The notes under the pieces were generated by a model. It made no database searches. It was not told the origin of the DNA and saw nothing but the letters and a program-made list of their open reading frames with translations. The position numbers and the translations under genes were made by a program. A stretch of DNA of 64,000 bases from an uncultured bacterium (GTDB taxonomy: Bacteria; Bacillota_I; Bacilli_A; RFN20; CAG-826), in assembly GCA_949297275.1 (NCBI GenBank), contig CASFQR010000001.1:93-64092 (forward strand). The letters are read 5' to 3'. Below are positions 7,848 to 53,393 of this stretch, one piece after another (the stretch's first letter is position 1; every line of letters starts with the position of its first letter).

Positions 7848-7862
7848 TTTCTTCCTCCTTCC

Positions 7863-39659: not shown

Positions 39660-40232
39660 TCAAAAAATTAAATACTTCAAATTATAGTAAAGGAGAAAAT
39701 AGGAAGCGTTAAAATAATCTCTAACATCACAAGATGTTATATCGATAAATTTATTGAGGCGATAGATGAAAGTATTGCGATGAATAAAGAGATTAAGCGA
39801 TGTAATAATCGCATTTAAATCATTGTTAATATAATTATAAATCGTGATGACTAATTCTTGATCAATATCATTAAATTCATCTTGAATTAAAGTAATAATT
39901 TGTTGATCGCGACGAACAATAAGATATAAAGAGGCTTGATATAAAGAAATTGCTTGGTTTTTAAAATTAGGAAATAATTTATGTAAGGCATATAAAGAAG
40001 ATTTATTTAAAGCGTGGGTAAATAAAAAGAAAATATTTAAGCCTAATTCTATATTAAACATTGCAATATTGGATTGGAGTTTAGAATAAAAACTTTTATC
40101 TTCAATCACATAACCTTCTTTTTCGTCTAAAAAAATAATTTTCTTTTTTGACACCCCAAAAGATTCAAATAATTCTATAAAATCATTTTCTTTTATTTTT
40201 TTATCGGTTTTAAACAAGAAATATTTTTGCAT
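39660..40232 (-). CDS. PucR/CdaR-type C-terminal HTH protein
   Basis: The C-terminus 'LFIHRNTFIYRLNKFIDITSCDVRDYFNASYF' matches the PucR_C HTH pattern (HRNT..YRL..I...G.D..D). Confidence 0.5.
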   Translation of the reverse strand: MQKYFLFKTDKKIKENDFIELFESFGVSKKKIIFLDEKEGYVIEDKSFYSKLQSNIAMFNIELGLNIFFLFTHALNKSSLYALHKLFPNFKNQAISLYQASLYLIVRRDQQIITLIQDEFNDIDQELVITIYNYINNDLNAIITSLNLFIHRNTFIYRLNKFIDITSCDVRDYFNASYFLLYYNLKYLIF

Positions 40233-40307
40233 AATTTGATGAAATGTCTTGGTTTTGCGGTTAATTTAAAGTAAAACTCCGCTATTTTTTAAGATAAGAT
40301 TCATCGC

Positions 40308-40610
40308 TTAAAGGAATAGCTTCTTCAGAAGGATAGCGATGGACTTCCTCGTAAGATTGTATTTATTTCTTAAAGCAATAATCTTTTCCATCACCTTAGA
40401 TTGATAGTGTCTATTAAGTGCTTCTTGGTTAACCCACTGGTCCACTAAAAGAACTGTTTCTTCATCATTTAAAGATAAATAATATTCGTATTTAAGATTA
40501 CCTTCTATGTTTCTTATTTCTTCCACTAAGCCACTATCAATCATTTCTTTAGCGAACAAAATAGCGTTACCATTTTTTCCATGATAATAAATATTAATTG
40601 TTAAAGCCAT
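40308..40610 (-). CDS. ABM-domain (antibiotic biosynthesis monooxygenase-like) small protein
   Basis: 100 aa. The '...EGNLKYEYYLSLNDEETVLLVDQWVNQEALNRHYQS' pattern is typical of ABM ferredoxin-like domains. Confidence 0.5.
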   Translation of the reverse strand: MALTINIYYHGKNGNAILFAKEMIDSGLVEEIRNIEGNLKYEYYLSLNDEETVLLVDQWVNQEALNRHYQSKVMEKIIALRNKYNLTRKSIAILLKKLFL

Positions 40611-40722: not shown

Positions 40723-41817
40723 TTATTTAATGTCACTAATGGAGGTAATTTCTCGATCACATAAATCCAAATCCTCGTTTATACCTTCAATCGTGAAAAA
40801 ATCTCGCGGAGGTAAAAGGGCGTTATCAACACTAAGTCGCGTTCCAAATTCATCAATAGCGAATGCTTCAATGATGGACGCTGCCTCTTCACCAGGTGAC
40901 CACGCTAGGGTGGTAAAAACGCTATGATAGCCCTGCTCTTTAACTAATTGTAAGGCTAATTCACGCGCGCGAAAAGCACCACAAACATCAATCTTATGAG
41001 GATCTTTCCCATAGATTGCCCCACCACCAATTGGAATCGCTGGACCATAAAAATCAAGGCATAATTTCTTCCCCGATAACCCATTATCGCCAATCGGCCC
41101 ACCTTGGATAAAATCACCCGCCCCATTAAGATAAAAATATTCATTATCAATCGTCGCTAAGGATTGCAAGATAGTGCCACTAAATAAATCATCTAGGCAA
41201 TCATCAACGGACTTTTTAACTAACTCAAATAAAGACTCAAACGATCTTGCTCTTTTATGTTGAACACTGATGGTAAGTCGCTGCCACTGATAGATGCCAT
41301 TATTACTATTAATCTGCGTTAAGATTTTAAAATCTGGACCAACTGTTAACCAACCGCTTAGTTTTATTTTTAATTTTTCCCCTAATTTAAGTGCAACAAA
41401 ATGTTCAATTGGTAGATAATCAGTTTCAGGGGAATTTAAAGCATAACCATGAACGACATTTTGATCATCACTATATTTTCTTATTTCTCTTTCGTCATCA
41501 GATAATTTTTCAATACAAACATCTAAATAAATTTCTAATTCTTCGGGATAAGGATGAAAATCTAAAGTAGAACCATATCCTGCTTCTAAATAGACTATTT
41601 TAACGATATCTTTGATTTTTTCTTCGTCAATGACTTCTTTATCTTTTCCTGCCGCGATTCTCCCATCAATAAAGACCTTATTCGTATGAATCGCACATTC
41701 TAAACCACATAAAGCGTCTTGATCATAATAAACAACATAATCAACTATTTGATCAACAATCGCATCGCATAAGCGATCGGGATGACCAGGTGAAACATAT
41801 TCAGCTACTAATATCAT
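40723..41817 (-). CDS. Divergent MetK-family methionine adenosyltransferase (SAM synthetase)-like protein
   Basis: Aligned by eye to E. coli MetK as I recall it. 'SPGHPDRLCDAIVDQIVD' matches SEGHPDKIADQISDAVLD, and 'DDQNVVHGYA' matches GDQGLMFGYA. 'GGPIGDNGLSGKK' matches GGPMGDCGLTGRK, and 'IGGGAIYGKDPHKID' matches HGGGAFSGKDPSKVD. It is shorter (364 aa) and has several substitutions in conserved blocks. Confidence 0.75.
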   Translation of the reverse strand: MILVAEYVSPGHPDRLCDAIVDQIVDYVVYYDQDALCGLECAIHTNKVFIDGRIAAGKDKEVIDEEKIKDIVKIVYLEAGYGSTLDFHPYPEELEIYLDVCIEKLSDDEREIRKYSDDQNVVHGYALNSPETDYLPIEHFVALKLGEKLKIKLSGWLTVGPDFKILTQINSNNGIYQWQRLTISVQHKRARSFESLFELVKKSVDDCLDDLFSGTILQSLATIDNEYFYLNGAGDFIQGGPIGDNGLSGKKLCLDFYGPAIPIGGGAIYGKDPHKIDVCGAFRARELALQLVKEQGYHSVFTTLAWSPGEEAASIIEAFAIDEFGTRLSVDNALLPPRDFFTIEGINEDLDLCDREITSISDIK

Positions 41818-41819
41818 GT

Positions 41820-43139
41820 TTAAAACTCCTCAAAATATTTGGTAATATTTAATAAATAATATTTGGTATAATTCCCGAATAAACCGCAATAAATTTCCAC
41901 TTGTGAGGCTTTAATCTTTTGATAATATGTTGATGAAACTTGACCAGTATCGCCATCAGTTAGAATTAATATTTTCTTTGTTTGCTTATGTTTTGGTAAA
42001 GAAAAATAATGATTAAAGATACAATCTAAAGAAGTACCACCAGTAGATTTAAATTTACCGTCGCGGAAATCTTGATAAGAAATCGATGTAACGGTTGTTG
42101 AAAAGGTAAAGAGCAAACATTCTTTATTTTGATATGGTTTTAATAAAAGCGGGGCAAAATGTCTTATCTCATCGACAACCGAACCAGAGACATCGAGATA
42201 GACCATCGAACAAACATTACTCTCCCTGACTCTTTGACGATTGATTAAAGTGGAATGATATAAAAGGGGCTTTTGGTACACGAGTGATTTAGCTAATAAG
42301 GTTCGATCTTTATAATCGGGCACTAAGGAGATGGCATCTTCTTTTAAATATTGGGTGGAGTTTTGTCTTTTGGAAATATTATCTAGTAATACACCTGATT
42401 TTCTTAATAATCTTTTCATTTTATTTTTAGCGATGCGATCTGCTTTTGCTAATTGAATAACTTTATTCTCTAATTCACCACCTAAATCACGACCATTAAA
42501 AGTCATTTCTTTTGGCCATTTAGTAATTACTTCATCAAACATTCTTTTTAATAAGGGATTATTCATGTCGTCATTCTGTCTAGAATGATTGCCTAAAAGA
42601 AGATATTGACCGTTTTGTAACAGATCTTTTAATTCTTTTAAGATGCATTCATAGACCTCAAAATAAGTGCCAGTGTTAGTGAGATATAAATTTTTTAAAA
42701 TAGGAATAAATTTTGCAGGTGTATTTTTTCCTAGTGGCCGTAAAATGCAGCTTGGAAATGTTTCTTCGCTATTCGCATTTTGAAAGAAAGAAACATATTC
42801 TTCACCAGGAAACATCCGGCATAACATCGCGTTAATCACCGCATCAAAAGCGATATTATCAATTTTACTATGTCTTTTAAATAGATGCGTGTGTCCTAAA
42901 ATAATGTGATAAAGCTCGTGCATCACTAACATAAAGAGATGTTCGTTGCTTTGACAATAAGTATCAACAAATGCTTTATTTAGGATTAATTCTGGTCGAG
43001 CACTACAAGTAATTGCTGCTGAAGATGTCTCGTCTTCGCTAAAACGAATATCCATCAATTTTAAAAACTCCATCATGTGTAAAGAACTTGTAGGAATCAC
43101 CGCGAATAATCTTTTTTTAATATCGTTAATCTCGCTCAT
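41820..43139 (-). CDS. HExxH metallopeptidase-like (DUF2201_N-type) + von Willebrand A domain protein
   Basis: N-terminal half has 'FMLVMHELYHIILGH' (HExxH). C-terminal half has the MIDAS motif 'VYLDVSGSV' (DxSxS) and a downstream 'LILTDGDTG'. The start overlaps the upstream stop (ATGA). Confidence 0.75.
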   Translation of the reverse strand: MSEINDIKKRLFAVIPTSSLHMMEFLKLMDIRFSEDETSSAAITCSARPELILNKAFVDTYCQSNEHLFMLVMHELYHIILGHTHLFKRHSKIDNIAFDAVINAMLCRMFPGEEYVSFFQNANSEETFPSCILRPLGKNTPAKFIPILKNLYLTNTGTYFEVYECILKELKDLLQNGQYLLLGNHSRQNDDMNNPLLKRMFDEVITKWPKEMTFNGRDLGGELENKVIQLAKADRIAKNKMKRLLRKSGVLLDNISKRQNSTQYLKEDAISLVPDYKDRTLLAKSLVYQKPLLYHSTLINRQRVRESNVCSMVYLDVSGSVVDEIRHFAPLLLKPYQNKECLLFTFSTTVTSISYQDFRDGKFKSTGGTSLDCIFNHYFSLPKHKQTKKILILTDGDTGQVSSTYYQKIKASQVEIYCGLFGNYTKYYLLNITKYFEEF

Positions 43140-43594
43140 GAATTTACCTCCCTAGCAGGAAAAAGCAAAATGCGTTTAAATTTATTTTCTACAAAACTAA
43201 GTGGACGATTAGGAATATATAAATCACCTACTGTCGAAGCAAAGACTAAGATGAGTAAAGGAATATTTCTACATGTTTTATGATGATATTGTTTCATCAA
43301 GCATTTTGATTCAAAAAGACTAATATTTTCATTCTTTAGTTCAATCGCTTCGGCTATCATATAGCCGGTTGGTTTTTCAATCATTCGACCAAGATCTGGA
43401 TGCTTTTTATAGTAATGTTTAACCTTTTTCTCTAATTTTGCTAAATTAAATTTATGAATTCCAAGTAAAAATGCGAGCATCACAGGATTAAAAGAAATAT
43501 ATTCTTCTAATTGTTCTTGACGAAATTTCACCTCACTGCGAGAAGGAGCGGACATGTTATGCAATAATCCACTCATAAATTGAGTTCCTCCCAA
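43136..43594 (-). CDS. Hypothetical protein (about 146-152 aa) between the MoxR and vWA genes
   Basis: No recognisable motif. The likely start is ATG at 43576, which overlaps the upstream TGA (ATGA) and has GGGAGG 9 nt upstream. Its stop overlaps the vWA start. Confidence 0.45.
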   Translation of the reverse strand: MGGTQFMSGLLHNMSAPSRSEVKFRQEQLEEYISFNPVMLAFLLGIHKFNLAKLEKKVKHYYKKHPDLGRMIEKPTGYMIAEAIELKNENISLFESKCLMKQYHHKTCRNIPLLILVFASTVGDLYIPNRPLSFVENKFKRILLFPAREVNS

Positions 43595-44973
43595 GTATCA
43601 ACAAAGAAAGCAAACAAACCTTTCGGCTCGTCTTCTGATACATATTGATCGGGTAAATAAGAACATAAATAATTATTTAAATATTTCTTATATTTAGCGT
43701 TATCAGGAACAGTATGCAGTAACACTACCACCATATCCGCGCATTTCTTCTTACTTAATGCTTCTAAAGAGATGTGTTTCTTCGTTTCTAAAATCGGTCT
43801 AATTTCATTCGCTAAAGTTTCCATAATAGCCGCGTGAATCTCGCTATTATCGCGAAAAGTTAAATAAGTAAATAAGGCCATCGCGCGACGAACTTTATCG
43901 TATTGAATTTGATTAAGCGAGGATAAAATCGCATCATTAATCATCTCAGTTTTGACCGTCTTCTTATTCTTAATTAATAGTTTTAATCGTTCGATTGGAT
44001 CATTAGTCAATAAAAGATCTTTTTCAATTGATTCATCTAGGCTTGCTAATTGCAAGGCTTGTTGACAAATATTCATGAGTAAGGTTTTATCAATCTCCTC
44101 ATTCGCTACATTAGGCAAAGTATTTTGAATATGTAAATAAGCGGCCTGATGAAACGATGCTCCTTGATTAAAATGACTATTAATTACTTTCATAGCTGCG
44201 TAGATATAAATAAAAGAATCTTCTAACATCGTCGCGCGACGAGCCGAAAAATAACCAAAAGAGTTTTTTAATAACCCCATCAAAGTAATGATATATTTAA
44301 CAATCGTTTCGAGGTTTGTCTTTAAAATATCTTGATAACATTCTTGAGTCTCTTTAATTAATGTATAGATATCAACGGGAAATTCATGTTTACCTAAATG
44401 ATTATCAATGAGCATGTTTCTTTTATCTTCATCATTTAAATTATCCCAAGTAGGTACTTCGATAATATAGGGAAAGCGATCTGCTAAAGCTGGATCGAGG
44501 GGCAAGGCCCCAATGTAAGATAAATCATCTTCCTCATCATCATCTTTACTTGGTGGATTCATGGCCGCCCAACGATATTTTAATTTGGTTAAATTTGTCC
44601 CTTGCACTCTTTTATCATAGATAATTGGGAACAATTTATTTTGTAATTCTGGTTTGGTGCGATTAAGTTCATCGATAAAAACAACTTCCGCATCCCAAAT
44701 CGCATTCGGGCTAGAAATATAACTTAAGGCCGTGTTGTTATTAACTGGAACAGGGATCCCCACTAAGTCGTCATAATTAATTAAAGAAGCATTATAACAT
44801 CTAAATGTTAAACCTAGGGATTCCGCTAGACGCTCTAAAATAAATGATTTCGCACTACCATGTTTCCCAATGAGAAGCAAAGGAGATTCGCTAGCTAAAG
44901 CCGCTAAAATAACTGGTTCTAAATGTGGCCAACCAAATAAGCCTAGTGGTTCGGTAATTAATGAATTATGCAT
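43573..44973 (-). CDS. MoxR-class AAA+ ATPase with long helical C-terminal extension
   Basis: Walker A 'LLIGKHGSAKS', Walker B 'VVFIDELNRTKPELQNKLFPI' (DE(I/L)NR hallmark), sensor-1 'AAMNP' and 'ALADRF'. AGGAGG lies 5 nt upstream of the ATG. Confidence 0.8.
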   Translation of the reverse strand: MHNSLITEPLGLFGWPHLEPVILAALASESPLLLIGKHGSAKSFILERLAESLGLTFRCYNASLINYDDLVGIPVPVNNNTALSYISSPNAIWDAEVVFIDELNRTKPELQNKLFPIIYDKRVQGTNLTKLKYRWAAMNPPSKDDDEEDDLSYIGALPLDPALADRFPYIIEVPTWDNLNDEDKRNMLIDNHLGKHEFPVDIYTLIKETQECYQDILKTNLETIVKYIITLMGLLKNSFGYFSARRATMLEDSFIYIYAAMKVINSHFNQGASFHQAAYLHIQNTLPNVANEEIDKTLLMNICQQALQLASLDESIEKDLLLTNDPIERLKLLIKNKKTVKTEMINDAILSSLNQIQYDKVRRAMALFTYLTFRDNSEIHAAIMETLANEIRPILETKKHISLEALSKKKCADMVVVLLHTVPDNAKYKKYLNNYLCSYLPDQYVSEDEPKGLFAFFVDTWEELNL

Positions 44974-45006
44974 ATATCCTCCTGACTAAATAGCCATAAA
45001 GAGGAT

Positions 45007-45140
45007 TAAAAACTCCCATCGCCATGATGGGAGTAATAAGTGTTAATAATTGTCCCCATCATGCAAGCTTTGGCACCCAACTTAACTTGGGTTGCCGGTG
45101 GATCATTGGGCTTGTCCCTAACCACACTCTTTATGGATAT
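45007..45140 (-). promoter_or_regulatory. SAM-I (S-box)-like riboswitch with terminator/antiterminator expression platform
   Basis: Minus strand: UAUCCAU-AAAGAG-UGUGG-UUAGGGACAAGCCC-AAUGA-UCCAC-CGGCAACC-CAAGUUAAGUUG-GGUGCCAAAGCUUGC-AUGAUGGGGA. It carries the S-box blocks AAGAG, (G/U)AGGGA..GCCC, AUGA, GGCAACC and GGUGCCAA. P1 pairs UAUCCAU (45139-45133) with AUGGGGA (45059-45053). The terminator is ACUCCCAUC-AUGGC-GAUGGGAGU-UUUU (45034-45008). The antiterminator pairs CAUGAUGGG with CCCAUCAUG. P4 is unusually short. Confidence 0.7.
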
Positions 45141-45176
45141 GTTTATATTATTGAACTTTTTTGCGAGTTTTAGCAA

Positions 45177-46043
45177 CTATTTTTTATTTATTTCGCCATT
45201 AAATTTGCTACTACCGATTGTTTGATGGAATTGTTTGATGATTGCCTCTATTTCAGGATCAATCATTAGATAAAGATATTTATCTTCAAAAGCTGACAAG
45301 GTTTTTGGTGAATAATATGCTTCACTGATTGCACCTGCCATCGCCCCCAGTGTATCGCAATCGCCTCCGAACGCGACACAATTTCTAATTGCATCTTCTA
45401 AACTATTAGAAATTAAGAAACAATAGATAGCCTGCGGCACAGATTTTTGACATATTCCAAAAAAGCGATAATCTTTTACTAATTGATCAAAATCTAATGT
45501 TGCTATTTCTGGATAATAATCAGCAATCATTCTTTCTCTTATTTCGTCTTTAGAGGCACCTTTTAAAGCAAGATAGATGCACATACTAACGGCTTCCGCG
45601 CCTTTTAAGCCTTCGATGTGATTATGAGTAATTTCAGTCACTGTTTTCACTAATAATTTTAAATGCTCTTCAGAATCGGCCACCCAACTAACAGGCGAAA
45701 TACGCATTGCACTGCCATTACCGTATGAATTATATGGAGGTGCAGGATATCCTAATGTTTTTGATTGGCGACACCATTTATAAAATAATGCCCCATAACC
45801 TGCTCGAGGATAACATTCATAAGCGTGAATAAATTCTTTGGCTAAATCAGCTTGGAGAACTTTAAGCGCTGACGCTGAATAATCAATCGGATAGTGTTTA
45901 ATAATGGTTTTAGCAACGGCAATTGTTAAATAAGAATCGTCGGTCATGCGCATTCTCTTATTATAAATATTAAATTGTTTAGTTTTAGAAGGATGAAATT
46001 CATAGATTGAACCCACCATATCTCCAATAATTGCGCCTAACAC
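45177..46043 (-). CDS. ADP-ribosylglycohydrolase (ARH/DraG family)
   Basis: N-terminus 'LGAIIGDMVGSIYEF', then 'MTDDSYLTIAVA', 'GNGSAMRISPV' and 'GGDCDTLGAMAGAISEAYY' are the characteristic ARH blocks. GTG start with AGGAG 8 nt upstream. Confidence 0.85.
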   Translation of the reverse strand: MLGAIIGDMVGSIYEFHPSKTKQFNIYNKRMRMTDDSYLTIAVAKTIIKHYPIDYSASALKVLQADLAKEFIHAYECYPRAGYGALFYKWCRQSKTLGYPAPPYNSYGNGSAMRISPVSWVADSEEHLKLLVKTVTEITHNHIEGLKGAEAVSMCIYLALKGASKDEIRERMIADYYPEIATLDFDQLVKDYRFFGICQKSVPQAIYCFLISNSLEDAIRNCVAFGGDCDTLGAMAGAISEAYYSPKTLSAFEDKYLYLMIDPEIEAIIKQFHQTIGSSKFNGEINKK

Positions 46044-46063
46044 CTTATCAACTCCTTTCTATT

Positions 46064-46092
46064 AGCATAGGAAACCTTTTATCTATCGTCAA
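46064..46092 (-). promoter_or_regulatory. Candidate promoter of the ADP-ribosylglycohydrolase gene
   Basis: On the minus strand: TTGACG (46092-46087), 17-nt spacer, TATGCT (46069-46064). Confidence 0.4.
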
Positions 46093-46105
46093 TTTTGATA
46101 GTCCT

Positions 46106-46813
46106 TTAATCCTGTAATTTTTCTAAAGCTTTCTTCACATGTTTTCTTGTTAAGCCTTTTTGATAATAGCTAGTTTGAATCAGATTTTTCGTTAATTTGG
46201 TTGCTTGATAATCAAACATTTCGCCGTCTAAAATAATGAATTTATCGATTTTAAAGCCTTTTTTCTTTTTTAAGCGTAAATATTCTAAAATGCCTTCGCC
46301 GCGATTAAGACAATAGTCATCATCTATTTTATCAATAATAGCCAAGCCCTGATCAGTGAATTTTTTATCTAAATAATTAGCGAGTTCATCTTGCAAAAAT
46401 TTTAGTTTTGATTCTTTTTGCCAATGTTCTTTCCACGAAGAAATTAAGACAATCAAAGCGTCTGTCGCTATCACTATTTCTTTTAATAAGGCAATTTTCT
46501 GATCCTCAATGCCTCGAAATAAATTGCAGCGTTCTTTAGTGGTAGAACAATTAAGTACACCATCAATATCAAGAAAAATAATCTTCATTCCTGGTCGATA
46601 TTCTTCTTTAAGTTCTAAATAAATCTTTTCTTTATTTATCTTCCCGTTCTCATTAATCATGCCTTTATCCATCAATTCATTAAATGTTCTTGAGGCTTGA
46701 TTAAAACCAAGCGACATTTCGCGTTGAAGAAAAGAGATTGATATTTTCTTTTCATCTAAGATCTTTTTTAATGTTTCTTTAAGATTGTTTTCCATTATAT
46801 TTATCTGATGCAA
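46106..46813 (-). CDS. FtsK-gamma-like winged-helix domain fused to HAD-superfamily phosphatase-like domain
   Basis: The N-terminal 'ISISFLQREMSLGFNQASRTFNELMDKGMI' resembles the FtsK gamma block (SISLLQRRLRIGYNRAARLI..ME..GIV). The C-terminal part has HAD motif I 'IIFLDIDGVLN' (DxDx[TV]). The likely true start is ATG at 46795, 5 nt after the upstream stop. Confidence 0.6.
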   Translation of the reverse strand: MHQINIMENNLKETLKKILDEKKISISFLQREMSLGFNQASRTFNELMDKGMINENGKINKEKIYLELKEEYRPGMKIIFLDIDGVLNCSTTKERCNLFRGIEDQKIALLKEIVIATDALIVLISSWKEHWQKESKLKFLQDELANYLDKKFTDQGLAIIDKIDDDYCLNRGEGILEYLRLKKKKGFKIDKFIILDGEMFDYQATKLTKNLIQTSYYQKGLTRKHVKKALEKLQD

Positions 46814-48231
46814 GCTAAAATTTCTGATGATTTCAGGTGCTTCTTCTCATAGAGCAATTGACCTAAGGCGAGGATTTCTAAGCGATGAGCTTTAATGTAT
46901 TTAGTTGTCTCTTTTTCACACTTTCTTAAGAATGCTTCAATCTTCTTTTCCATTTTTCTTCTTTTAATCGCAGTATCAGTTCTTGCCCCTGGTTCGATGA
47001 CTGGTAAGGTTTCCCAGCACGAAGAAAAACCACAAATATTAAACATGTTATAAGCGTAATTTCGTGCGCGTTGTAAATCACTATCGCAACCGCGCGAACC
47101 GCGACCACAAATAATCTTTTGAGCAATTAGACCCGCTAGAGAAATTTTAATGTCGGCAATAACCTTATCATAAGGCCAAAAATCTTTTTCAACCTCTTTA
47201 GCGATAAATTCCCCACTGGCACCCGAAATATTAATTCTACTCGTAATAAAGAATTCGGGAAAAGCTCTAGCCATGACAGCATGACCCGCTTCATGAATCG
47301 CAACTTCTAAATTATCTTCTTCTGGTCGACTTTTGACCCGATCAGCAATTTCATAGATTGAGTTATCGATCATTTCAGAAGTAAGATTATCAAAGCCATT
47401 TTTTAACACTAAATTATTTACTACCGCTTTAATGCCCGCGCAACTAATCCCCACGAGTGATAAAGCTACTTCTTCATCATCAAAATCAGCGGGGAATTTG
47501 AGATTAAATTCTTTAAAGTGTCTTTTAAGAAGTTCTAAAGCTTCTGCGCCAGTAGGATAAGAAATTTTAATTAGTTTTTCTAATCGACCGTGGCGAAGTA
47601 AGGAATCAGGTATTTCGTTAATAAAATTCGTGGCCGTGAGCACTAAGATATCATCTGATGATTCCACACCATCTAAATTTTCTTGCAAAGCGCGAATAAC
47701 TCTATTTTCCCTATTGATGAGTAAATCTAATTCATCAAAGACAATAATTGCATGACCAGCTTCGCGAGCTTTTTTAAATGTTTCAATAATGCCCCCAACA
47801 ATATTCTTTTGCGCCCCTTGGAAGACAAATACTGGTGCTTCCGCGCATCTAATAATTTCTTTAATTAATAAAGATTTGCCATTGCCGGGTTCACCATAAA
47901 GAATAACGCCTTTAGGTATCGATAAGCCTTTGGCCTTTAGTTCTTGCGAATGTTTAAACCAATCAATAACATAAAGAAGTTCTTTCTTTTGATTTTGATG
48001 GCCCACTACTCTCACTAAAGGTTCTTCGCCTTCCGCTAATTTTGAAGCATTAATAAATTCATAAGTGCTAAAGCCATCATTTGCTATTGATGAATCAAGT
48101 GTTTTATTTATATATCTATTTCCAATTTGAGTATCAGAAATATCTTCCTCGAATTCTTCAAAATAATCATCGTCATCATAATTTACATCAAATTGCTCTT
48201 TATCAAACATTTCTTTTGCTAATCCTTTCAT
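46801..48231 (-). CDS. Soluble (TM-less) FtsH-like AAA+ ATPase / M41 zinc metalloprotease
   Basis: Walker A 'GEPGNGKS', Walker B 'IIVFDELD', SRH 'LTATNFINEIPDSLLRHGRLE', M41 zinc site 'AIHEAGHAVMA', and an FtsH-like 'GCDSDLQRARNYAYNMFNICGFS' block. The N-terminal ~100 aa are acidic with no hydrophobic helix. Confidence 0.8.
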   Translation of the reverse strand: MKGLAKEMFDKEQFDVNYDDDDYFEEFEEDISDTQIGNRYINKTLDSSIANDGFSTYEFINASKLAEGEEPLVRVVGHQNQKKELLYVIDWFKHSQELKAKGLSIPKGVILYGEPGNGKSLLIKEIIRCAEAPVFVFQGAQKNIVGGIIETFKKAREAGHAIIVFDELDLLINRENRVIRALQENLDGVESSDDILVLTATNFINEIPDSLLRHGRLEKLIKISYPTGAEALELLKRHFKEFNLKFPADFDDEEVALSLVGISCAGIKAVVNNLVLKNGFDNLTSEMIDNSIYEIADRVKSRPEEDNLEVAIHEAGHAVMARAFPEFFITSRINISGASGEFIAKEVEKDFWPYDKVIADIKISLAGLIAQKIICGRGSRGCDSDLQRARNYAYNMFNICGFSSCWETLPVIEPGARTDTAIKRRKMEKKIEAFLRKCEKETTKYIKAHRLEILALGQLLYEKKHLKSSEILACIR

Positions 48232-48254
48232 TTGCTAACCTCTTTTCGCCCTCA

Positions 48255-48283
48255 ATTATAAGGTCCTAGTTTTTAATGTTTAA
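48255..48283 (-). promoter_or_regulatory. Candidate promoter of the FtsH-like / HAD gene pair
   Basis: On the minus strand: TTAAAC (48283-48278), 17-nt spacer, TATAAT (48260-48255). RBS AGAGGT lies 7 nt before the ATG at 48231. Confidence 0.4.
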
Positions 48284-48398
48284 AAATGGATATTTTTGTC
48301 CGGTTATCTGTACATTATTTAAGTAATGATCAAACTAGTTTGTTATAAATAAAAAATTAGACGGATTTATTGCCAATATTTTTACTATATATTTGATA

Positions 48399-49799
48399 TT
48401 AATCATTAATTTTTTTATTTTTATCGCTAACTAATTTAGCGTTATTAATAAGTGGCTGATATCTATTATGTTTATAGCGATAATATCTACCTGTTTCCAT
48501 CGCCTTGATGATAGTTTCTTTTCCAATATCATCTTGATATTTTAAGAGTATTCCTAAGAAGCGATTTCCTAAAAACGAGTTGATGGAAATCGGTGCAACA
48601 ACATCAATAACATCAGCAATACTCGGATTATTAAATAACCAGGAGACTAAAGCATTACGATTAATAGTAATATTAACGACACCAAATTTCGGATTACCAT
48701 CACCCTCATATTTTTCACATTTAATCGCGTATTCATCAACTTTTCTAGGAATTTCAATTGCCTTACCATGAGAAATGAATCTTTTATCAATTTTAAACTT
48801 ATTGCATTTAATAATTGGCATTTCTTTTCCAAAATATTCTTCAAATGACTTCTTCACCCTCATAGCGAAGCGATATTCAAAATAGAAAGATGATTTAAAC
48901 GCTAAACCATCTTCTGGCACGATTTGCTCAGCAACATATTCATCTAAAGATTCATAATATTTTGCTAAAAATTTATTATTAATTTTAAATAATTCATTAA
49001 GCCTATTATCGCTAGTCTCATCTTCCATTAATACTTCTCTTTTCGGGAGATGAGGAATATTAAGATTCTCAATTGCATCAAAAACCACACCGTGACGATT
49101 AAGTGGGATTAAGATTGCATAAGGTTTATTATTATGTTCTTCAATTTGATAGACGCGATAATATATTTTTTCCTCAATATTTCCAAAGCGCAATTTTGGC
49201 TTAATAGTAGAGTTATTATTTTCTTTAGGAAGTTGACCAAAATGAGTTTGAATAATTAAGATACTTTTCTTCTCTTTAAATGCTTCATTAACTAATCGCA
49301 ATTTTCGATTCATTAAAGTGTTATATTTCTTAACGCATTTATTCTCTTTTTCTAGTTCTTGTAGATAAAATTCTCGATTATGTTTATTGCTTAAAAAATC
49401 TAATAATTTGTTAATTAATAGATTGGTGTCATGGTCTTTCGTGTATTTATCATTTTGGATAGCCGCTAAAATTTTAATGATTTGTTCTTCATTTAAATGA
49501 TTCCTTTCTTCGATGTAGAATTTACCAGAATCCGTTGAATTTATCATAAATGGTATTTTATCGGTATTTGCAAATTTAAAACAAATCGCTTGCAACCATT
49601 GCAAGCAATCACCAATTCGTTGCCTTCTAACATCATCACCAGGCTTACCACCTTCATATTTCAATCCAAAAGTGCGCGCATAACGGCAGATTTCTTGTTG
49701 CGTAGCAGGATGATTAACATCTGTATATTTTAATAAATAATCTAAAGTTAATAATAATTCGATTCGATGAAGAACAGTATCACTAAATTTACTCATCAC
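48399..49799 (-). CDS. wHTH-domain protein, possibly WYL-type regulator (uncertain)
   Basis: The N-terminus 'LLTLDYLLKYTDVNHPATQQEICRYARTFG' looks like a DeoR/HTH_11-type wHTH. The central 'YYRVYQIEEHNNKPYAILIPLNRHGVVFDAIENL' only loosely resembles a WYL core. The track start is GTG; ATG one codon later is the likely start. Confidence 0.4.
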   Translation of the reverse strand: MMSKFSDTVLHRIELLLTLDYLLKYTDVNHPATQQEICRYARTFGLKYEGGKPGDDVRRQRIGDCLQWLQAICFKFANTDKIPFMINSTDSGKFYIEERNHLNEEQIIKILAAIQNDKYTKDHDTNLLINKLLDFLSNKHNREFYLQELEKENKCVKKYNTLMNRKLRLVNEAFKEKKSILIIQTHFGQLPKENNNSTIKPKLRFGNIEEKIYYRVYQIEEHNNKPYAILIPLNRHGVVFDAIENLNIPHLPKREVLMEDETSDNRLNELFKINNKFLAKYYESLDEYVAEQIVPEDGLAFKSSFYFEYRFAMRVKKSFEEYFGKEMPIIKCNKFKIDKRFISHGKAIEIPRKVDEYAIKCEKYEGDGNPKFGVVNITINRNALVSWLFNNPSIADVIDVVAPISINSFLGNRFLGILLKYQDDIGKETIIKAMETGRYYRYKHNRYQPLINNAKLVSDKNKKIND

Positions 49800-49887: not shown

Positions 49888-52351
49888 GAGGATAACATCA
49901 CTCCTAAACTAATAGGAAAAACATCACTATTAGAAAAGTGTTTAAGAGCACTCGAGGATAACATCACTCCTAAACTTAAAGTAGAATATTTCGCGAATGC
50001 TATAAGTTTAAGAGCACTCGAGGATAACATCACTCCTAAACATATGGATTATGGACGCAATATATTGCTGCGTTTAAGAGCACTCGAGGATAACATCACT
50101 CCTAAACATTTTGTCCAGAGATGCAAGATTGCAAATCGTTTAAGAGCACTCGAGGATAACATCACTCCTAAACCAAGAATTAACAATTAAGAAGTCTCAA
50201 TGCGTTTAAGAGCACTCGAGGATAACATCACTCCTAAACCTTATTACGGTTATAGTGTAGCACTTTTTAGTTTAAGAGCACTCGAGGATAACATCACTCC
50301 TAAACTTTAAAATTTGTCATTCTTTTTCCTTTGATGTTTAAGAGCACTCGAGGATAACATCACTCCTAAACCTTGTCTTTTGGCGATTTTTGATTACTAC
50401 TGTTTAAGAGCACTCGAGGATAACATCACTCCTAAACCTACGATCAAAAGAACGCCGTTCTGAAGCTGTTTAAGAGCACTCGAGGATAACATCACTCCTA
50501 AACAATAAATAATCGTAAATAAGATCAAACATAGTTTAAGAGCACTCGAGGATAACATCACTCCTAAACTAAACCACCATTAATAGATTGAGCATAAAAG
50601 TTTAAGAGCACTTGAGGATAACATCACTCCTAAACTATATTTTCTTTTTTTACTCTTTTTTTTCTGTTTAAGAGCACTTGAGGATAACATCACTCCTAAA
50701 CATAGATTTAAAAGAAGAAGATAAAGAAGATGTTTAAGAGCACTTGAGGATAACATCACTCCTAAACGATATAAAACTCTCTTTATATAATAATATAGTT
50801 TAAGAGCACTTGAGGATAACATCACTCCTAAACATCAAGACTTAACATTTGATTAAAAGAAACGTTTAAGAGCACTTGAGGATAACATCACTCCTAAACA
50901 ATTATAATTAATTATCTTTTCTTTTCTTTGTTTAAGAGCACTTGAGGATAACATCACTCCTAAACACCGGCTAATTCGATATATTTATAAAACGCGTTTA
51001 AGAGCACTTGAGGATAACATCACTCCTAAACATAATTAATATCAATATCAAGTTTACAAATGTTTAAGAGCACTTGAGGATAACATCACTCCTAAACCTA
51101 AGAGATATACTAGTTAATGGTAAAACTGTTTAAGAGCACTTGAGGATAACATCACTCCTAAACTCCAATGCGTATTATTTGGAATCATTGGAAGTTTAAG
51201 AGCACTTGAGGATAACATCACTCCTAAACAGTAGCAAACATTAAAGAAACTTCTTCCACGTTTAAGAGCACTTGAGGATAACATCACTCCTAAACAGTTG
51301 CTTGCCTGCTCCTCAAAAAGGTGATGTTTAAGAGCACTTGAGGATAACATCACTCCTAAACCAAAGAGTAGAGTTGATAAGCGACTTCGCTGTTTAAGAG
51401 CACTTGAGGATAACATCACTCCTAAACTAATATAGTAAATTAATAGAAAGTGAAAAAGTTTAAGAGCACTCGAGGATAACATCACTCCTAAACTTCATTT
51501 GTGTGGAACAATGCACGAATGAGGTTTAAGAGCACTTGAGGATAACATCACTCCTAAACTATATTTGTACCGGTTTATTGATTATAATAGTTTAAGAGCA
51601 CTTGAGGATAACATCACTCCTAAACACCTTTATTAGTGTTAACAATAACTTCATCGTTTAAGAGCACTTGAGGATAACATCACTCCTAAACCAGATGGCT
51701 TAAACATAACTATAGACTTGGGTTTAAGAGCACTTGAGGATAACATCACTCCTAAACCATAGTCGTAAGAGTACAAGTGTCCATTGTGTTTAAGAGCACT
51801 TGAGGATAACATCACTCCTAAACTCTTCTAAAATATCTAAATTAGGAACATAAGTTTAAGAGCACTTGAGGATAACATCACTCCTAAACACCTCGATTAA
51901 ATCTTTTTTAATGCAATTTGTTTAAGAGCACTTGAGGATAACATCACTCCTAAACAATTAATACTGAATTAGGTGCTAATGTATCGTTTAAGAGCACTTG
52001 AGGATAACATCACTCCTAAACTACAGTTAAATAATTTCCTTTAATTTTATAGTTTAAGAGCACTTGAGGATAACATCACTCCTAAACGATAAGTATGGAT
52101 CCTACCATTTAACTGTAGTTTAAGAGCACTTGAGGATAACATCACTCCTAAACTTAACAACAACAGCGGGTTCTATAGACATAGTTTAAGAGCACTTGAG
52201 GATAACATCACTCCTAAACCGTAATTTTATATTTTTTAAAGGGCTATCGGTTTAAGAGCACTTGAGGATAACATCACTCCTAAACAAAGGTAAAAGGTTT
52301 TTTTCAGCACTTTCGGTTTAAGAGCACTTGAGGATAACATCACTCCTAAAC
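49888..52351 (-). CRISPR. Type II-A CRISPR array: 37 full 36-bp repeats, one 22-bp decayed terminal repeat, 37 spacers of exactly 30 bp
   Basis: The plus-strand repeat GTTTAAGAGCACT(C/T)GAGGATAACATCACTCCTAAAC starts at 49940 + 66n for n = 0-36, each position checked by eye. The decayed copy GAGGATAACATCACTCCTAAAC is at 49888-49909. Transcription is inferred on the minus strand, where the crRNA repeat reads GTTTAGGAGTGATGTTATCCTC(A/G)AGTGCTCTTAAAC. Confidence 0.97.
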
Positions 52352-52404
52352 CTCAAATAAAATAAGGCCTATAGGATGTCTCCTAATAAAAATACTATTG
52401 TATT
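52352..52404 (-). promoter_or_regulatory. CRISPR leader (short) with ATTTGAG leader-repeat junction
   Basis: The minus strand reads ...TTATTTGAG|GTTTAGGAG. As I recall, ATTTGAG is the leader-end motif reported for a subgroup of type II-A loci. A possible -10 box TACAAT lies at 52402-52397. The decayed repeat sits at the opposite end of the array. Confidence 0.6.
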
Positions 52405-53076: not shown

Positions 53077-53393
53077 AATTTGATTATTTTCTCATCTGTC
53101 ATAATGACATCTGTGTTTAAATCACCTAACAAACATTGAATGGAGGAAAATTGTTTTTCGGTTAAGGTTAAGCAAGATACAAAACCTTCAGCCGGCAACA
53201 ATGATTTAATGCTTTTCATTGTTGCTTCAACCGCGGTTTCATTTAAACATAATTTGGTATAAACACTTTCTTGAAACATTGAGAAACCTTCTTTTTTAAT
53301 GTGCTTAACAAACTTGGAATATTCTTTGTGATCTTTTTTGGTCACAGCTGGTAAATCAAAAAACAAAACAATTCTCATAAATCTATATATCAT
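53073..53393 (-). CDS. cas2: Cas2
   Basis: 'MRIVLFFDLPAVTKKDHKEYSKFVKHIKKEGFSMFQESVY' shows the Cas2 ferredoxin-fold pattern (..YD(I/L)......Y..F.K.L...G....Q.SV(F/Y)). It overlaps cas1. Confidence 0.85.
   Translation of the reverse strand: MIYRFMRIVLFFDLPAVTKKDHKEYSKFVKHIKKEGFSMFQESVYTKLCLNETAVEATMKSIKSLLPAEGFVSCLTLTEKQFSSIQCLLGDLNTDVIMTDEKIIKL

What the first reader, a model, noticed from the sequence alone, without database searches (positions are those of the whole stretch)
40723..45140. SAM-riboswitch-gated operon: MoxR AAA+ ATPase, 152-aa unknown, metallopeptidase-vWA protein, divergent MetK-family enzyme
What the sequence shows:
- Four minus-strand genes are translationally coupled. 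Two junctions are ATGA start/stop overlaps, at 43576/43573 and 43139/43136, and a 2-nt gap lies at 41820/41817.
- At each junction a GGGAGG or GAGGAG Shine-Dalgarno sits inside the upstream gene's 3' end.
- Gene 1 has MoxR hallmarks (GKHGSAKS, DELNR, AAMNP, ALADRF).
- Gene 3 combines an HExxH domain with a vWA MIDAS site (DVSGS ... TDGD).
- Gene 4 keeps most MetK active-site blocks but is shorter and substituted in several of them (for example HGGGAFSGKD becomes IGGGAIYGKD).
- An S-box-like riboswitch with an intrinsic terminator immediately precedes the set.

Established knowledge:
- MoxR/vWA pairs act as dedicated remodelers or activases of one client enzyme: CbbQ/CbbO with Rubisco, NorQ/NorD with NO reductase, CoxD/CoxE with CO dehydrogenase.
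- vWA-MoxR modules have also been predicted computationally to form NTP-dependent conflict systems.
- S-boxes normally sit directly upstream of metK or Met/Cys genes.

Inference: the pair either matures, activates or proteolytically controls the MetK-like enzyme, or the unit is a stress or defence module induced when SAM falls. Phage SAM lyases that deplete SAM would be one such trigger, which fits the CRISPR and accessory genes next door. I do not recall a described MoxR-vWA system linked to a methionine adenosyltransferase or placed under SAM riboswitch control.
Basis: partly seen in the sequence, partly recalled or inferred. Interest (0 to 1): 0.8.

Follow-up and report, generated by a model that had tools for sequence, protein, structure and literature searches.

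The report
SAM-riboswitch operon: AAA+ remodeler plus divergent SAM synthetase
A SAM-sensing RNA switch controls a four-gene cassette, conserved in many bacterial phyla, that pairs a chaperone-like ATPase machine with an unusual relative of the enzyme that makes the cell's main methyl donor; I found no description of this pairing.

Summary
An S-box (SAM-I) riboswitch passes Rfam's threshold, and it has a terminator and antiterminator. It precedes four tightly coupled minus-strand genes:
- a MoxR AAA+ ATPase;
- a 146-aa protein of unknown fold;
- a zincin-like HExxH + vWA/MIDAS protein;
- a divergent MetK-like enzyme (MetKL).

The linkage is conserved well beyond this genome. Starting from MetKL, over 571 loci were found in species-representative genomes. 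In the best 80, spanning roughly 12 phylum-level groups by record title:
- The vWA gene lies directly upstream of MetKL in 70 of 70 testable loci.
- MoxR lies upstream in 58 of 60.
- The small gene is homologous across phyla.
- A SAM-I or SAM-I/IV aptamer lies upstream of MoxR in 45 of 58.

A bona fide metK is adjacent in six loci, so MetKL is a paralogue, not the housekeeping enzyme there.

MetKL keeps all ATP, triphosphate and metal catalytic residues. It invariably changes the methionine head-group ligands (E55R, S99E).

Best reading: a module induced by SAM starvation, in which MoxR, vWA and the small protein remodel or activate a second adenosyltransferase. The mechanism is inferred, not shown. 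The defence idea gains no support. I found no prior description.

The parts
45147..45176 (-). Promoter-like site (TTGCTA-18-AATAAT) just upstream of the aptamer. Weak evidence.
   Evidence: Consensus scan. Such sites were not enriched over shuffles, so only its position supports it.
45053..45139 (-). SAM-I (S-box) riboswitch aptamer with a very short P4.
   Evidence: Rfam RF00162: 46.9 bits against gathering score 44.4, E = 1.4e-7. Orthologous aptamers occupy the same position in related loci.
45005..45064 (-). Expression platform. The intrinsic terminator hairpin is at 45034-45012, followed by a T-run. Its 5' half can instead pair with the 3' strand of P1 (about 45064-45053) to form an antiterminator.
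43573..44973 (-). MoxR-class AAA+ ATPase (466 aa) with about 300 aa of helical C-terminal extension.
   Evidence: Pfam AAA_5 at 49 bits. Walker A, Walker B, sensor 1 (AAMNP) and ALADRF are conserved in 54 orthologues. No hit to PDB sequences.
43136..43576 (-). Small protein (146 aa from the ATG at 43576) with a disordered N-terminal motif LHNMSxPPR(T/S). Its fold matches nothing known.
   Evidence: pLDDT 77. One search found no PDB fold match. Homologues occupy the same position across phyla by jackhmmer.
41820..43139 (-). Two-domain protein. The N-terminal domain is zincin-like (HExxHxxxGHT, then FDAVIN). The C-terminal domain is vWA with a complete MIDAS (DxSxS...GT...TDG).
   Evidence: vWA matches: MDN1 MIDAS, NorD, CMG2; weak DUF2201_N hits in 24 of 27 members and VWA_CoxE in 18 of 27; motifs conserved in 66 orthologues.
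40723..41817 (-). Divergent MetK-like adenosyltransferase (MetKL, 364 aa).
   Evidence: E = 1e-43 to PDB MATs; catalytic residues invariant, with E55R and S99E; the clade scores 132-173 bits against TIGR01034, cut-off 309.

Best explanation
This is one transcription unit that is switched on when SAM is scarce.

**Switch.** When SAM is bound, the S-box aptamer closes P1 and the intrinsic terminator forms. When SAM is low, the 3' strand of P1 pairs with the terminator's 5' half, and RNA polymerase reads into four translationally coupled genes.

**Enzyme.** The last gene (MetKL) is a catalytically competent paralogue of SAM synthetase. It most likely makes SAM from ATP and methionine, using a rebuilt methionine head-group pocket and gating loop.

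**Remodeler.** The first three genes form a dedicated MoxR-type remodeling machine for MetKL.
- The vWA/MIDAS domain would act as the adaptor that grips an acidic residue of the client.
- The MoxR hexamer would supply ATP-driven pulling.
- The small protein and the zincin-like domain would be an accessory adaptor or processing step.
- Together they would assemble, open or reactivate MetKL. For example, they might open a latched gating loop or strip a tightly bound product. This resembles CbbQ/CbbO on Rubisco, NorQ/NorD on NO reductase and RavA on LdcI.

**Shown:** the riboswitch, the operon architecture, the conservation of the four-gene cassette and its SAM aptamer across phyla, the intact catalytic and ATPase/MIDAS/HExxH motifs, and paralogy with true metK.

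**Inferred:** that the product is SAM, that MetKL is the client, and what the remodeling achieves.
For: 1. **Riboswitch and platform.**
2. **Coupled junctions.**. Across related loci the median gaps are -4, -4 and +2 nt.
3. **Gene association.** A MetKL-seeded scan of 185,579 species genomes gave over 571 loci. In the best 80:
   - the vWA gene lies directly upstream in 70 of 70 testable loci;
   - MoxR lies upstream in 58 of 60;
   - a homologous small gene lies between them;
   - no other gene recurs.
4. **SAM control is ancient and recurrent.**
   - Rfam SAM-I or SAM-I/IV hits at gathering score lie upstream of MoxR in 19 of 40 scanned loci from Firmicutes, Lentisphaerae-like, Verrucomicrobia, Planctomycetes, Myxococcota, Alpha- and Betaproteobacteria, Actinomycetes and Marinimicrobia.
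   - Family-specific CMs find an aptamer on the coding strand within 1.3 kb upstream of MoxR in 45 of 58 loci, 34 of them at E < 1e-3.
5. **MetKL looks active.** In 74 of 74 orthologues H14, D16, E42, D118, D163, K165, F230, D238, K245, K265, K269 and D271 (E. coli numbering) are kept. R244 is replaced conservatively by K.
6. **The remodeler looks active.** The Walker A/B, sensor-1 and Arg-finger motifs, the MIDAS and the HExxH..H motif are conserved across phyla.
7. **MetKL is a paralogue.** A true metK (TIGR01034 at 390-592 bits) lies next to the cassette in L023, L063, L064, L068 and L077, and 6 kb away in L044. In L064 and L068 it follows MetKL directly, on the same strand, downstream of the only detected SAM aptamer.
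8. **Precedent.** Established knowledge: MoxR/vWA pairs serve one client enzyme. NorQD is described in PMC9976466 and PMC13036017, listed.
Against: - No biochemical or expression data exist for any member.
- No protein-protein prediction could be run, so the client of MoxR/vWA is inferred only from gene order.
- MetKL invariably replaces the glutamate that binds the methionine alpha-amino group (E55R). It also changes the gating-loop residues Q98 and S99 (residue roles from PMC6850014). The substrate or product may therefore not be methionine or SAM.
- Why a SAM synthetase would need an AAA+ machine is unexplained.
- The roles of the zincin-like domain and of the small protein are unknown.
- I could not check whether the window organism has a canonical metK elsewhere in its genome.
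- Two related loci (L063, L073) lack a detectable MoxR.
- Thirteen of 58 loci lack a detectable aptamer.
Confidence: 0.5

Rival explanations
1. MetKL is an adenosyltransferase for a substrate other than free L-methionine, or it makes a sulfonium product other than SAM. Candidates include a methionine analogue, a keto- or N-blocked thioether, or a peptidyl methionine. The MoxR/vWA/zincin/small-protein set would deliver or process that substrate. The riboswitch would tie the pathway to SAM status.
For: - E55, the alpha-amino ligand, becomes Arg in 73 of 74 orthologues.
- S99 becomes Glu in 73 of 74, Q98 is variable, and the gating loop is shorter.
- Residue roles come from the MAT2A structures in PMC6850014.
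- The clade scores far below the metK equivalog cut-off.
- It coexists with a true metK.
- A zincin-like domain together with a small, fast-diverging protein carrying a conserved N-terminal peptide motif recalls peptide-processing pairs (PMC7159879).
Against: - SAM-repressed genes normally raise the SAM or methionine supply.
- D238, the second alpha-amino ligand, and K269 are invariant.
- The E55R/S99E pair could simply swap which side of the pocket holds the ammonium and the carboxylate of methionine.
- The Met in the small protein's motif is not invariant: NMS, NVG, NLM and NLS all occur.
Confidence: 0.17
2. The real client of the MoxR/vWA machine is the housekeeping MetK, or mixed MetK/MetKL oligomers. 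MetKL would act as an adaptor or partner subunit that recruits the remodeler to MetK. The aim would be to reactivate or re-tune MetK during SAM starvation.
For: - A canonical metK abuts the cassette in 5 of 80 loci and lies within 8 kb in a sixth. By my own estimate, chance would give roughly 0.4% per locus in a 4-Mb genome.
- In L064 and L068 it lies just downstream of MetKL, behind the same SAM aptamer. In L023 the aptamer precedes metK, which precedes MoxR.
- Established knowledge: MAT active sites lie at dimer interfaces, so hetero-oligomers are conceivable.
Against: - MetKL keeps every catalytic residue across phyla. That is not expected of a mere adaptor.
- Most loci have no metK nearby.
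- There is no direct evidence of an interaction.
Confidence: 0.15
3. The cassette is an anti-phage or stress module. Phage SAM lyases or MetK inhibitors lower SAM, the riboswitch opens, and the cassette then either restores SAM with an inhibitor-resistant synthetase or acts as an NTP-dependent conflict system.
For: - In the window it lies about 5 kb from a type II-A CRISPR-Cas locus and next to an FtsH-like AAA+ gene, a HAD_SAK_2 gene and an ADP-ribosylglycohydrolase gene.
- vWA-MoxR conflict systems have been predicted (PMC7159879).
- An extra, divergent synthetase could in principle evade phage proteins that target MetK.
Against: - No defence gene recurs next to the cassette in 80 loci.
- PADLOC gives no real hit for the four proteins.
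- The Pfam bpMoxR score is below cut-off (20.6 against 27).
- There is no VMAP or effector component.
- The cassette is absent from the viral contig scan and from the plasmid collection.
- Control by a SAM riboswitch is typical of housekeeping SAM homeostasis.
Confidence: 0.07
4. Nothing special is here. MetKL is just this lineage's housekeeping metK behind its usual S-box, and the three upstream genes are unrelated passengers.
For: S-boxes commonly precede metK (established knowledge; PMC2864571). The window holds no other metK.
Against: - The four-gene order, with overlapping junctions, is kept across many phyla.
- MetKL never appears without the vWA gene (70 of 70).
- True metK coexists with it in six loci.
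- The aptamer sits upstream of MoxR, not directly before MetKL.
Confidence: 0.03

Closest known systems
Client-specific MoxR AAA+/vWA remodelers: CbbQ/CbbO (Rubisco activase), NorQ/NorD (Fe insertion into cNOR), CoxD/CoxE, RavA/ViaA with LdcI
   Same: It has a MoxR-class AAA+ ATPase with intact Walker A/B, sensor-1 and Arg-finger motifs. A vWA protein with a complete MIDAS is encoded next to it. Both are genetically locked to one enzyme gene. The vWA model matches NorD and MDN1 MIDAS domains.
   Different: The associated enzyme is a SAM-synthetase paralogue, a client class I found no report of. The vWA protein carries an N-terminal HExxH zincin-like domain. A fourth, small protein of unknown fold is an obligatory member. 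The whole unit is under a SAM riboswitch. The MoxR has no detectable similarity to any PDB sequence.
Canonical bacterial SAM synthetase MetK (TIGR01034) under S-box control
   Same: It has the three-domain MAT fold at sequence level (E = 1e-43 to PDB MATs). All ATP, triphosphate and metal catalytic residues are kept. A SAM-I OFF switch lies upstream.
   Different: - It scores 132-173 bits against the 309-bit equivalog cut-off.
- It is about 25-30% identical to true MetK.
- It carries E55R, S99E, R244K and H257I, and a shorter gating loop.
- In this window's copy the conserved C-terminal YGHFGR motif is missing.
- It coexists with true metK.
- It is never found without the MoxR/small-gene/vWA genes.
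DUF2201_N + DUF2201/VWA_CoxE proteins paired with AAA_5 MoxR ATPases (uncharacterised Pfam architecture)
   Same: It has the same two-domain layout, with HExxH at the N-terminus and vWA at the C-terminus, and the same MoxR partner. Weak Pfam hits to both domains occur across the family.
   Different: It falls below Pfam thresholds, so it is at best a distant branch. That architecture itself has no known function: only four incidental mentions were found in the literature.
vWA-MoxR ternary conflict systems (Kaur, Burroughs, Iyer and Aravind 2020, PMC7159879)
   Same: It has a MoxR and vWA core, and a metallopeptidase plus a small, fast-evolving protein. This is reminiscent of their peptide-processing modules.
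   Different: There is no VMAP component and no effector domain. The bpMoxR score is below cut-off. There is no defence context, and the cassette is tied to a metabolic enzyme and a metabolite riboswitch.

Membership tests
SAM-I riboswitch (Rfam RF00162) | Covariance-model score at or above the curated gathering score | tested here: met
   46.9 bits against 44.4, E = 1.4e-7, full model 1-108.
SAM-I riboswitch (Rfam RF00162) | Four-helix junction (P1-P4) with conserved core nucleotides | tested here: inconclusive
   P1, P2, P3 and the core are aligned with high posterior probability. The P4 region is reduced to a few nucleotides (18 model positions replaced by 1). The same short form recurs in L001, L002, L005, L006, L016 and L021.
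SAM-I riboswitch (Rfam RF00162) | Expression platform in which P1 formation competes with an antiterminator of an intrinsic terminator | tested here: met
   The terminator lies at 45034-45012 and is followed by a T-run. The MFE fold pairs the P1 3' strand with the terminator's 5' half.
SAM-I riboswitch (Rfam RF00162) | Binds SAM and represses downstream genes | not testable with these tools
   Needs in-line probing or a reporter assay.
MoxR-class AAA+ ATPase | AAA+ core with Walker A, Walker B, sensor 1 and an arginine finger | tested here: met
   GKHGSAKS, DELNR, AAMNP and ALADRF are present and conserved in 54 orthologues.
MoxR-class AAA+ ATPase | Match to MoxR-type Pfam models above threshold | tested here: met
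   AAA_5 scores 49.1 bits against a cut-off of 22. AAA_3 (23.8 against 27) and bpMoxR (20.6 against 27) fall below cut-off.
MoxR-class AAA+ ATPase | Adjacent gene for a vWA/MIDAS partner | tested here: met
vWA domain with MIDAS | DxSxS...T...D metal-ion-dependent adhesion site | tested here: met
   D316, S318, S320, T369 and D395 are invariant or nearly so.
vWA domain with MIDAS | Rossmann-like vWA fold | tested here: met
   AF2 model with pLDDT of about 85-93 over residues 310-439. Foldseek hits to MDN1 MIDAS, NorD VWA and CMG2 at probability 1.00.
DUF2201_N putative metallopeptidase (PF13203) | Pfam score above the gathering threshold | tested here: not met
   12.7 bits against 23.2 for the window protein. 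The best family member reaches E = 0.0013, and 24 of 27 members give weak hits.
DUF2201_N putative metallopeptidase (PF13203) | HExxH zinc-binding motif | tested here: met
   H74, E75, H78 and H83 are invariant and conserved in 66 orthologues. Peptidase activity was not tested.
MetK / methionine adenosyltransferase (TIGR01034 equivalog) | Score above the equivalog cut-off | tested here: not met
   132.3 bits against 309.4. Orthologues score 138-173, whereas neighbouring true metK genes score 390-592.
MetK / methionine adenosyltransferase (TIGR01034 equivalog) | Catalytic residues for ATP, triphosphate, Mg and K (H14, D16, E42, D118, D163, K165, F230, D238, R244, K245, K265, K269, D271) | tested here: met
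   All are invariant in 74 orthologues, except for the conservative R244K change.
MetK / methionine adenosyltransferase (TIGR01034 equivalog) | Methionine head-group ligands E55 and Q98 (human E70 and Q113) | tested here: not met
   E55 becomes R in 73 of 74. Q98 becomes D, G or E. S99 becomes E in 73 of 74. Residue roles are from PMC6850014.
MetK / methionine adenosyltransferase (TIGR01034 equivalog) | Makes SAM from ATP and L-methionine | not testable with these tools
   Needs an enzyme assay.
vWA-MoxR ternary conflict system (PMC7159879) | Third VMAP component, effector domains and a defence-island context | tested here: not met
   No such domains were found. PADLOC gave no hit. No defence neighbour recurs.
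Client-specific MoxR/vWA remodeler (CbbQO / NorQD type) | Conserved genetic linkage of the pair to one enzyme gene | tested here: met
   vWA upstream in 70 of 70 loci and MoxR in 58 of 60.
Client-specific MoxR/vWA remodeler (CbbQO / NorQD type) | Physical engagement and ATP-dependent activation of the client | not testable with these tools

The most novel reading that the evidence does not exclude
A SAM synthetase paralogue that cannot work on its own. It would be gated or reactivated by its own AAA+ 'activase' (MoxR, a vWA-zincin protein and a small adaptor) and deployed only under SAM starvation. That would make it the SAM-metabolism counterpart of Rubisco activase. Alternatively, the rebuilt methionine pocket (E55R, S99E) may mean that the enzyme makes a different adenosyl-sulfonium compound. 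In either case this would be an unrecognised, pan-bacterial member of the SAM riboswitch regulon.
Probability: 0.4. Interest if true: 0.85.

Novelty: new variant of a known kind. Interest (0 to 1): 0.72.

Why it matters
- **A new client class.** SAM synthetase is one of the most conserved and best-studied enzymes, and it is regarded as self-sufficient. A widespread paralogue that is genetically inseparable from a MoxR/vWA machine would give that chaperone class a new kind of client.
- **A functional handle on two unknowns.** The DUF2201-type zincin-vWA proteins and a new small-protein family have no known function. This linkage gives both a concrete, testable partner.
- **A larger SAM regulon.** The cassette would add four genes to the SAM riboswitch regulon in many phyla, including gut Bacilli and Clostridia, Verrucomicrobia, Planctomycetes and Proteobacteria.
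- **A better MoxR model system.** The unit has four genes, a defined effector (SAM) and an easy enzymatic read-out. The mechanisms of most MoxR systems remain obscure.
- **Possible new chemistry.** If the altered methionine pocket reflects a new substrate, the cassette would reveal new sulfonium biochemistry.

Tried and rejected
1. **Defence reading.** PADLOC on the four proteins and their neighbours gave only a 15.6-bit PtuA hit for MoxR, plus IetA-like hits for the unrelated FtsH-like gene. The viral-contig scan with the MetKL profile found nothing. A tblastn search of 72,556 plasmids with the vWA protein found nothing.
2. **Sequence annotation of the unknowns.** Pfam, NCBIfam and PDB sequence searches for the vWA protein and the small protein found nothing significant. 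The MoxR has no PDB sequence hit.
3. **Fold search for the small protein.** No match in the PDB.
4. **Other conserved neighbours.** All-against-all clustering of the ORFs of the 80 loci gave only shadow ORFs and one small Arm/AP2-like ORF in loci whose record titles place them in Verrucomicrobia and Planctomycetota (PVC-group). ORFs between the aptamer and MoxR in L015, L017, L049, L054 and L057 are lineage-specific.
5. **Literature.** Seven full-text searches found no description (reading). They combined MoxR, vWA, DUF2201, SAM riboswitch, SAM-I/IV, metK and methionine adenosyltransferase.
6. **Sole housekeeping metK.** Rejected for at least six genomes.
7. **Pseudoenzyme or adaptor MetKL.** Rejected, because the catalytic residues are invariant.
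8. **Peptidyl-Met substrate.** I considered whether the small protein's N-terminal Met might be the substrate. That Met is not invariant.
9. **Exception locus L073.** It has no MoxR, and Pfam on its upstream ORFs gave nothing.
10. **A culturable host.** The cluster-member look-up gave no organism or strain names.

Full report
**1. What is in the window**

Four minus-strand ORFs lie between 44973 and 40723.

| Gene | Coordinates | Length |
|---|---|---|
| MoxR | 43573-44973 | 466 aa |
| small protein | 43136-43594 | 152 aa from TTG; 146 aa from the ATG at 43576 |
| vWA protein | 41820-43139 | 439 aa |
| MetK-like (MetKL) | 40723-41817 | 364 aa |

- All homologues and the public gene calls use the 146-aa form of the small protein.
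GGGAGG precedes an ATGA overlap at 43576/43573. GGGAGG precedes an ATGA overlap at 43139/43136. GAGGAG precedes TAA-AC-ATG at 41820/41817.
- Rfam's SAM-I model matches 45053-45139(-) at 46.9 bits, above the gathering score of 44.4, with E = 1.4e-7.
- The aptamer is followed by a 9-bp, G+C-rich hairpin at 45034-45012, a T-run, a Shine-Dalgarno sequence and the MoxR start codon.
- Folded without ligand, the leader pairs the 3' strand of P1 with the 5' half of the terminator. This is the classical S-box antiterminator, so the leader is a SAM-OFF transcriptional switch.

**2. What the four proteins are**

*Gene 1 (MoxR).*
- It matches Pfam AAA_5 at 49 bits against a cut-off of 22.
- It carries Walker A (GKHGSAKS), Walker B (DELNR), sensor 1 (AAMNP) and ALADRF.
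- All of these are conserved in 54 orthologues from many phyla.
- It has no detectable relative among PDB sequences.

*Gene 2 (small protein).*
- It has no Pfam, NCBIfam or PADLOC hit.
- Its AF2 model (pLDDT 77) matches no PDB fold.
- Its disordered N-terminus carries a motif, LHNMSxPPR(T/S), that is conserved across phyla.

*Gene 3 (vWA protein).*
- It has an invariant HExxHxxxGHT motif followed by FDAVIN at the N-terminus.
- It has a complete MIDAS (DxSxS...GT...TDG) at the C-terminus.
- The C-terminal domain of its AF2 model (mean pLDDT 80) matches the MDN1 MIDAS domain, the NorD VWA domain and CMG2.
- On Pfam the window protein is sub-threshold. Across the family, 24 of 27 members hit DUF2201_N weakly and 18 of 27 hit VWA_CoxE. 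It is therefore a distant branch of the uncharacterised zincin-like + vWA architecture.

*Gene 4 (MetKL).*
- It is clearly MAT-like: E = 1e-43 to solved MATs, with the Pfam N and C domains above cut-off.
- It scores only 132 bits against the metK equivalog model, whose cut-off is 309.

**3. The linkage is conserved across bacteria**

- A profile of MetKL homologues was used to scan one genome per species (185,579 species). More than 571 loci were confirmed, and the best 80 were fetched.
- By record title, the 80 loci come from:
  - Bacilli and Clostridia;
  - Lentisphaerae, Kiritimatiellae, Verrucomicrobia and Planctomycetes;
  - Alpha- and Betaproteobacteria, Acidiferrobacteraceae and Myxococcota;
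  - Acidobacteria and Actinobacteria;
  - Marinimicrobia, Cloacimonetes, Latescibacterota and Nitrospinota;
  - a CPR Uhrbacterium.
- Wherever enough upstream DNA exists, the vWA gene lies directly upstream of MetKL (70 of 70) and MoxR lies upstream of that (58 of 60; the exceptions are L063 and L073).
- An ORF of 120-245 aa always fills the space between MoxR and the vWA gene. These ORFs are homologous to the window's small protein by iterated profile search.
- Median intergenic distances are -4, -4 and +2 nt.
- All-against-all clustering of every ORF in the 80 loci found no other recurrent neighbour.
- The unit is therefore a self-contained four-gene cassette.
- The vWA family has about 472 clusters at 50% identity with E <= 1e-30 among 1.84 billion representatives.
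- The cassette was not found in the viral contig scan or in the plasmid collection.

**4. SAM control is conserved too**

- Rfam at gathering score finds a SAM-I or SAM-I/IV aptamer upstream of MoxR in 19 of 40 loci scanned, from at least eight phylum-level groups.
- The closest genome, L001, has one at 41.2 bits, just under threshold.
- Two covariance models built from these hits were searched over all loci.
- They find an aptamer on the coding strand within 1.3 kb upstream of MoxR in 45 of 58 loci with enough flank, 34 of them at E < 1e-3.
- L058 has two aptamers in tandem.
- Different aptamer classes recur in different phyla in front of the same cassette. This argues that the cassette's job is tied to the SAM level itself.

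**5. MetKL is a paralogue of metK, not a replacement**

- In L063, L064 and L068 (Planctomycetes) a second MAT gene follows MetKL directly.
- In L023 (Opitutaceae) and L077 (Cloacimonetes) one directly precedes MoxR. In L044 one lies 6 kb away.
- These neighbours score 390-592 bits against TIGR01034. MetKL orthologues from five phyla score 132-173. The two families are cleanly separated.
- In L064 and L068 the only detected SAM aptamer lies upstream of MoxR, and metK follows MetKL on the same strand. In L023 the aptamer precedes metK, which precedes MoxR.
- Metabolic linkage to SAM synthesis is therefore very likely.
- I could not test whether the window organism has another metK.

**6. The active site**

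I aligned 74 MetKL orthologues with E. coli MetK. My recalled E. coli sequence is identical to PDB 7ll3_A.
- *Kept in 74 of 74:* H14, D16, E42, D118, D163, K165, F230, D238, K245, K265, K269, D271 and the GGG loop.
- *Conservative changes:* R244 is K in 73 of 74. K17 is R or K.
- *Changed:* E55 is Arg in 73 of 74. S99 is Glu in 73 of 74. Q98 is D, G or E. H257 is Ile. The gating loop is about six residues shorter.

In human MAT2A, Glu70 (E. coli E55) and Asp258 (D238) hold the methionine alpha-amino group. Gln113 (Q98) holds a carboxylate oxygen (PMC6850014).

So the adenosyl-transfer and triphosphatase machinery is intact, but the methionine head-group pocket and gating loop have been rebuilt in a fixed way. 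I infer three possible meanings:
- The charges may be swapped, with Arg holding the carboxylate and Glu99 the ammonium, so that the substrate is still methionine.
- An Arg55-Glu99 latch may hold the gating loop shut, so that the enzyme needs external opening.
- The substrate may differ.

**7. Most likely mechanism**

- MoxR/vWA pairs are dedicated remodelers of one client enzyme (established knowledge). CbbQO acts on Rubisco, NorQD on cNOR, CoxDE on CO dehydrogenase, and RavA on LdcI (see PMC9976466 and PMC13036017, listed).
- Here the conserved client candidate is MetKL.
- I therefore read the unit as a module induced by SAM starvation. Low SAM opens the riboswitch and the four proteins are made in fixed proportion by translational coupling.
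- The vWA/MIDAS protein would dock on MetKL and MoxR would supply force. The zincin-like domain and the small protein would be an adaptor or processing step. An active second adenosyltransferase would result and raise SAM.
- Only the first step (the RNA switch architecture) and the gene association are shown. The rest is inference, at a confidence of about 0.5.

Rival readings:
- a different substrate or product (0.17);
- the true client is MetK or MetK/MetKL hetero-oligomers (0.15);
- a defence module (0.07);
- an ordinary metK with unrelated passenger genes (0.03, contradicted by the data).

**8. Comparison with known systems, and novelty**

- By anatomy, the cassette works like a CbbQO- or NorQD-type client-specific MoxR/vWA system.
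- It differs in four ways:
  - the client is a MAT paralogue;
  - the vWA protein carries a zincin-like domain;
  - a fourth, small protein is obligatory;
  - the unit is controlled by a riboswitch.
- It is not a member of the vWA-MoxR ternary conflict systems. There is no VMAP and no effector, bpMoxR is below threshold, PADLOC is negative, and no defence context recurs.
- MetKL fails the metK equivalog test and one substrate-ligand test, so I do not file it as MetK, although it probably works like one.
- Seven full-text searches found no description of a MoxR/vWA system linked to MAT or to a SAM riboswitch.
- I rate it a new variant of a known kind. Interest is 0.72. The association is robust, widespread and unexpected for so well-studied an enzyme, and it is directly testable. 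Its mechanism is still unknown.

Noticed in passing
window 49940-58307: A complete type II-A CRISPR-Cas locus on the minus strand. It comprises Cas9 (54261-58307), Cas1 (53383-54261), Cas2 (53073-53393), Csn2 (52405-53076) and an array of about 36 repeats with a 66-bp period (49940-52351).
   Followed up: partly
window 45177-49799: A four-gene minus-strand block lies between the CRISPR array and the riboswitch.
- A 466-aa protein with no Pfam hit.
- An FtsH-like AAA+ + peptidase M41 protein (476 aa) that gives PADLOC IetA-like hits.
- An FtsK-gamma + HAD_SAK_2 ('Swiss Army Knife RNA repair' HAD) protein.
- An ADP-ribosylglycohydrolase.

The same block is kept in the near-identical contigs L082 and L083, and partly in L001. 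It is not kept next to the cassette in other phyla. It may be an uncharacterised defence or repair island.
   Followed up: partly
L023 3118-3474; L025 4184-4432; L027 3048-3305; L029, L031, L032, L036, L037, L041: In nine loci whose record titles place them in Verrucomicrobia and Planctomycetota (PVC-group), a small conserved ORF of about 80-120 aa sits just upstream of MoxR, after the aptamer where one was detected. In L023 it overlaps the aptamer call and precedes the canonical metK. Its motif is NPNHHLWNNNGTWWxHYTxH...SLxT...A...RD. It gives weak, sub-threshold hits to Arm-DNA-bind_3, DUF6538 and AP2. It may be an added DNA-binding regulator or a fifth operon member in these lineages.
   Followed up: partly
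L058 1469-1571 and 1658-1763: Two SAM-I/IV aptamers lie in tandem in front of the cassette in a Xanthobacteraceae MAG (73.9 and 64.5 bits). Tandem aptamers usually give a sharper, more digital response.
   Followed up: no
L020 10532-10638: A second SAM-I/IV-like aptamer (57.6 bits with model R2) lies about 1.4 kb downstream of MetKL on the same strand, in front of an unidentified gene near the end of the locus.
   Followed up: no
L015 823-4602; L017 691-1670; L054 1437-4269: In three loci, lineage-specific genes sit between the SAM aptamer and MoxR. L015 has DnaJ-like, HIRAN and Sel1-repeat genes. L017 has an ECF sigma factor. L054 has a histone-deacetylase-family gene. These are either insertions into the leader or extra genes placed under SAM control.
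   Followed up: partly
L049 (OZ248540.1, Burkholderiaceae isolate MiE-M12, chromosome of 804,601 bp): The full cassette with a strong SAM-I/IV aptamer (71 bits) is kept in what looks like a strongly reduced genome. That would hint at an important, perhaps essential, role there. The rest of that genome could not be searched for metK.
   Followed up: no
L081 6001-7638: One vWA-protein homologue (P0222) is 545 aa long. Only its first ~300 residues match the vWA-protein profile, and a GGDEF Pfam hit is on record for the protein. It sits in an otherwise normal cassette whose MoxR gene is split.
   Followed up: no
L047 and L050 (uncultured Firmicutes), about 5800-8500: Long ORFs in other frames overlap the cassette genes (for example L047 5855-6703 and 7394-8503). 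These two loci also lack a detectable SAM aptamer. The cause of the overlapping ORFs was not examined; codon usage or genetic code are candidates.
   Followed up: no
window 39660-40610: Downstream of MetKL, after a 112-nt spacer with no obvious terminator, lie an ABM (antibiotic biosynthesis monooxygenase-like) gene and a PucR-type HTH gene. They are kept only in near-identical contigs, not in other loci.
   Followed up: partly
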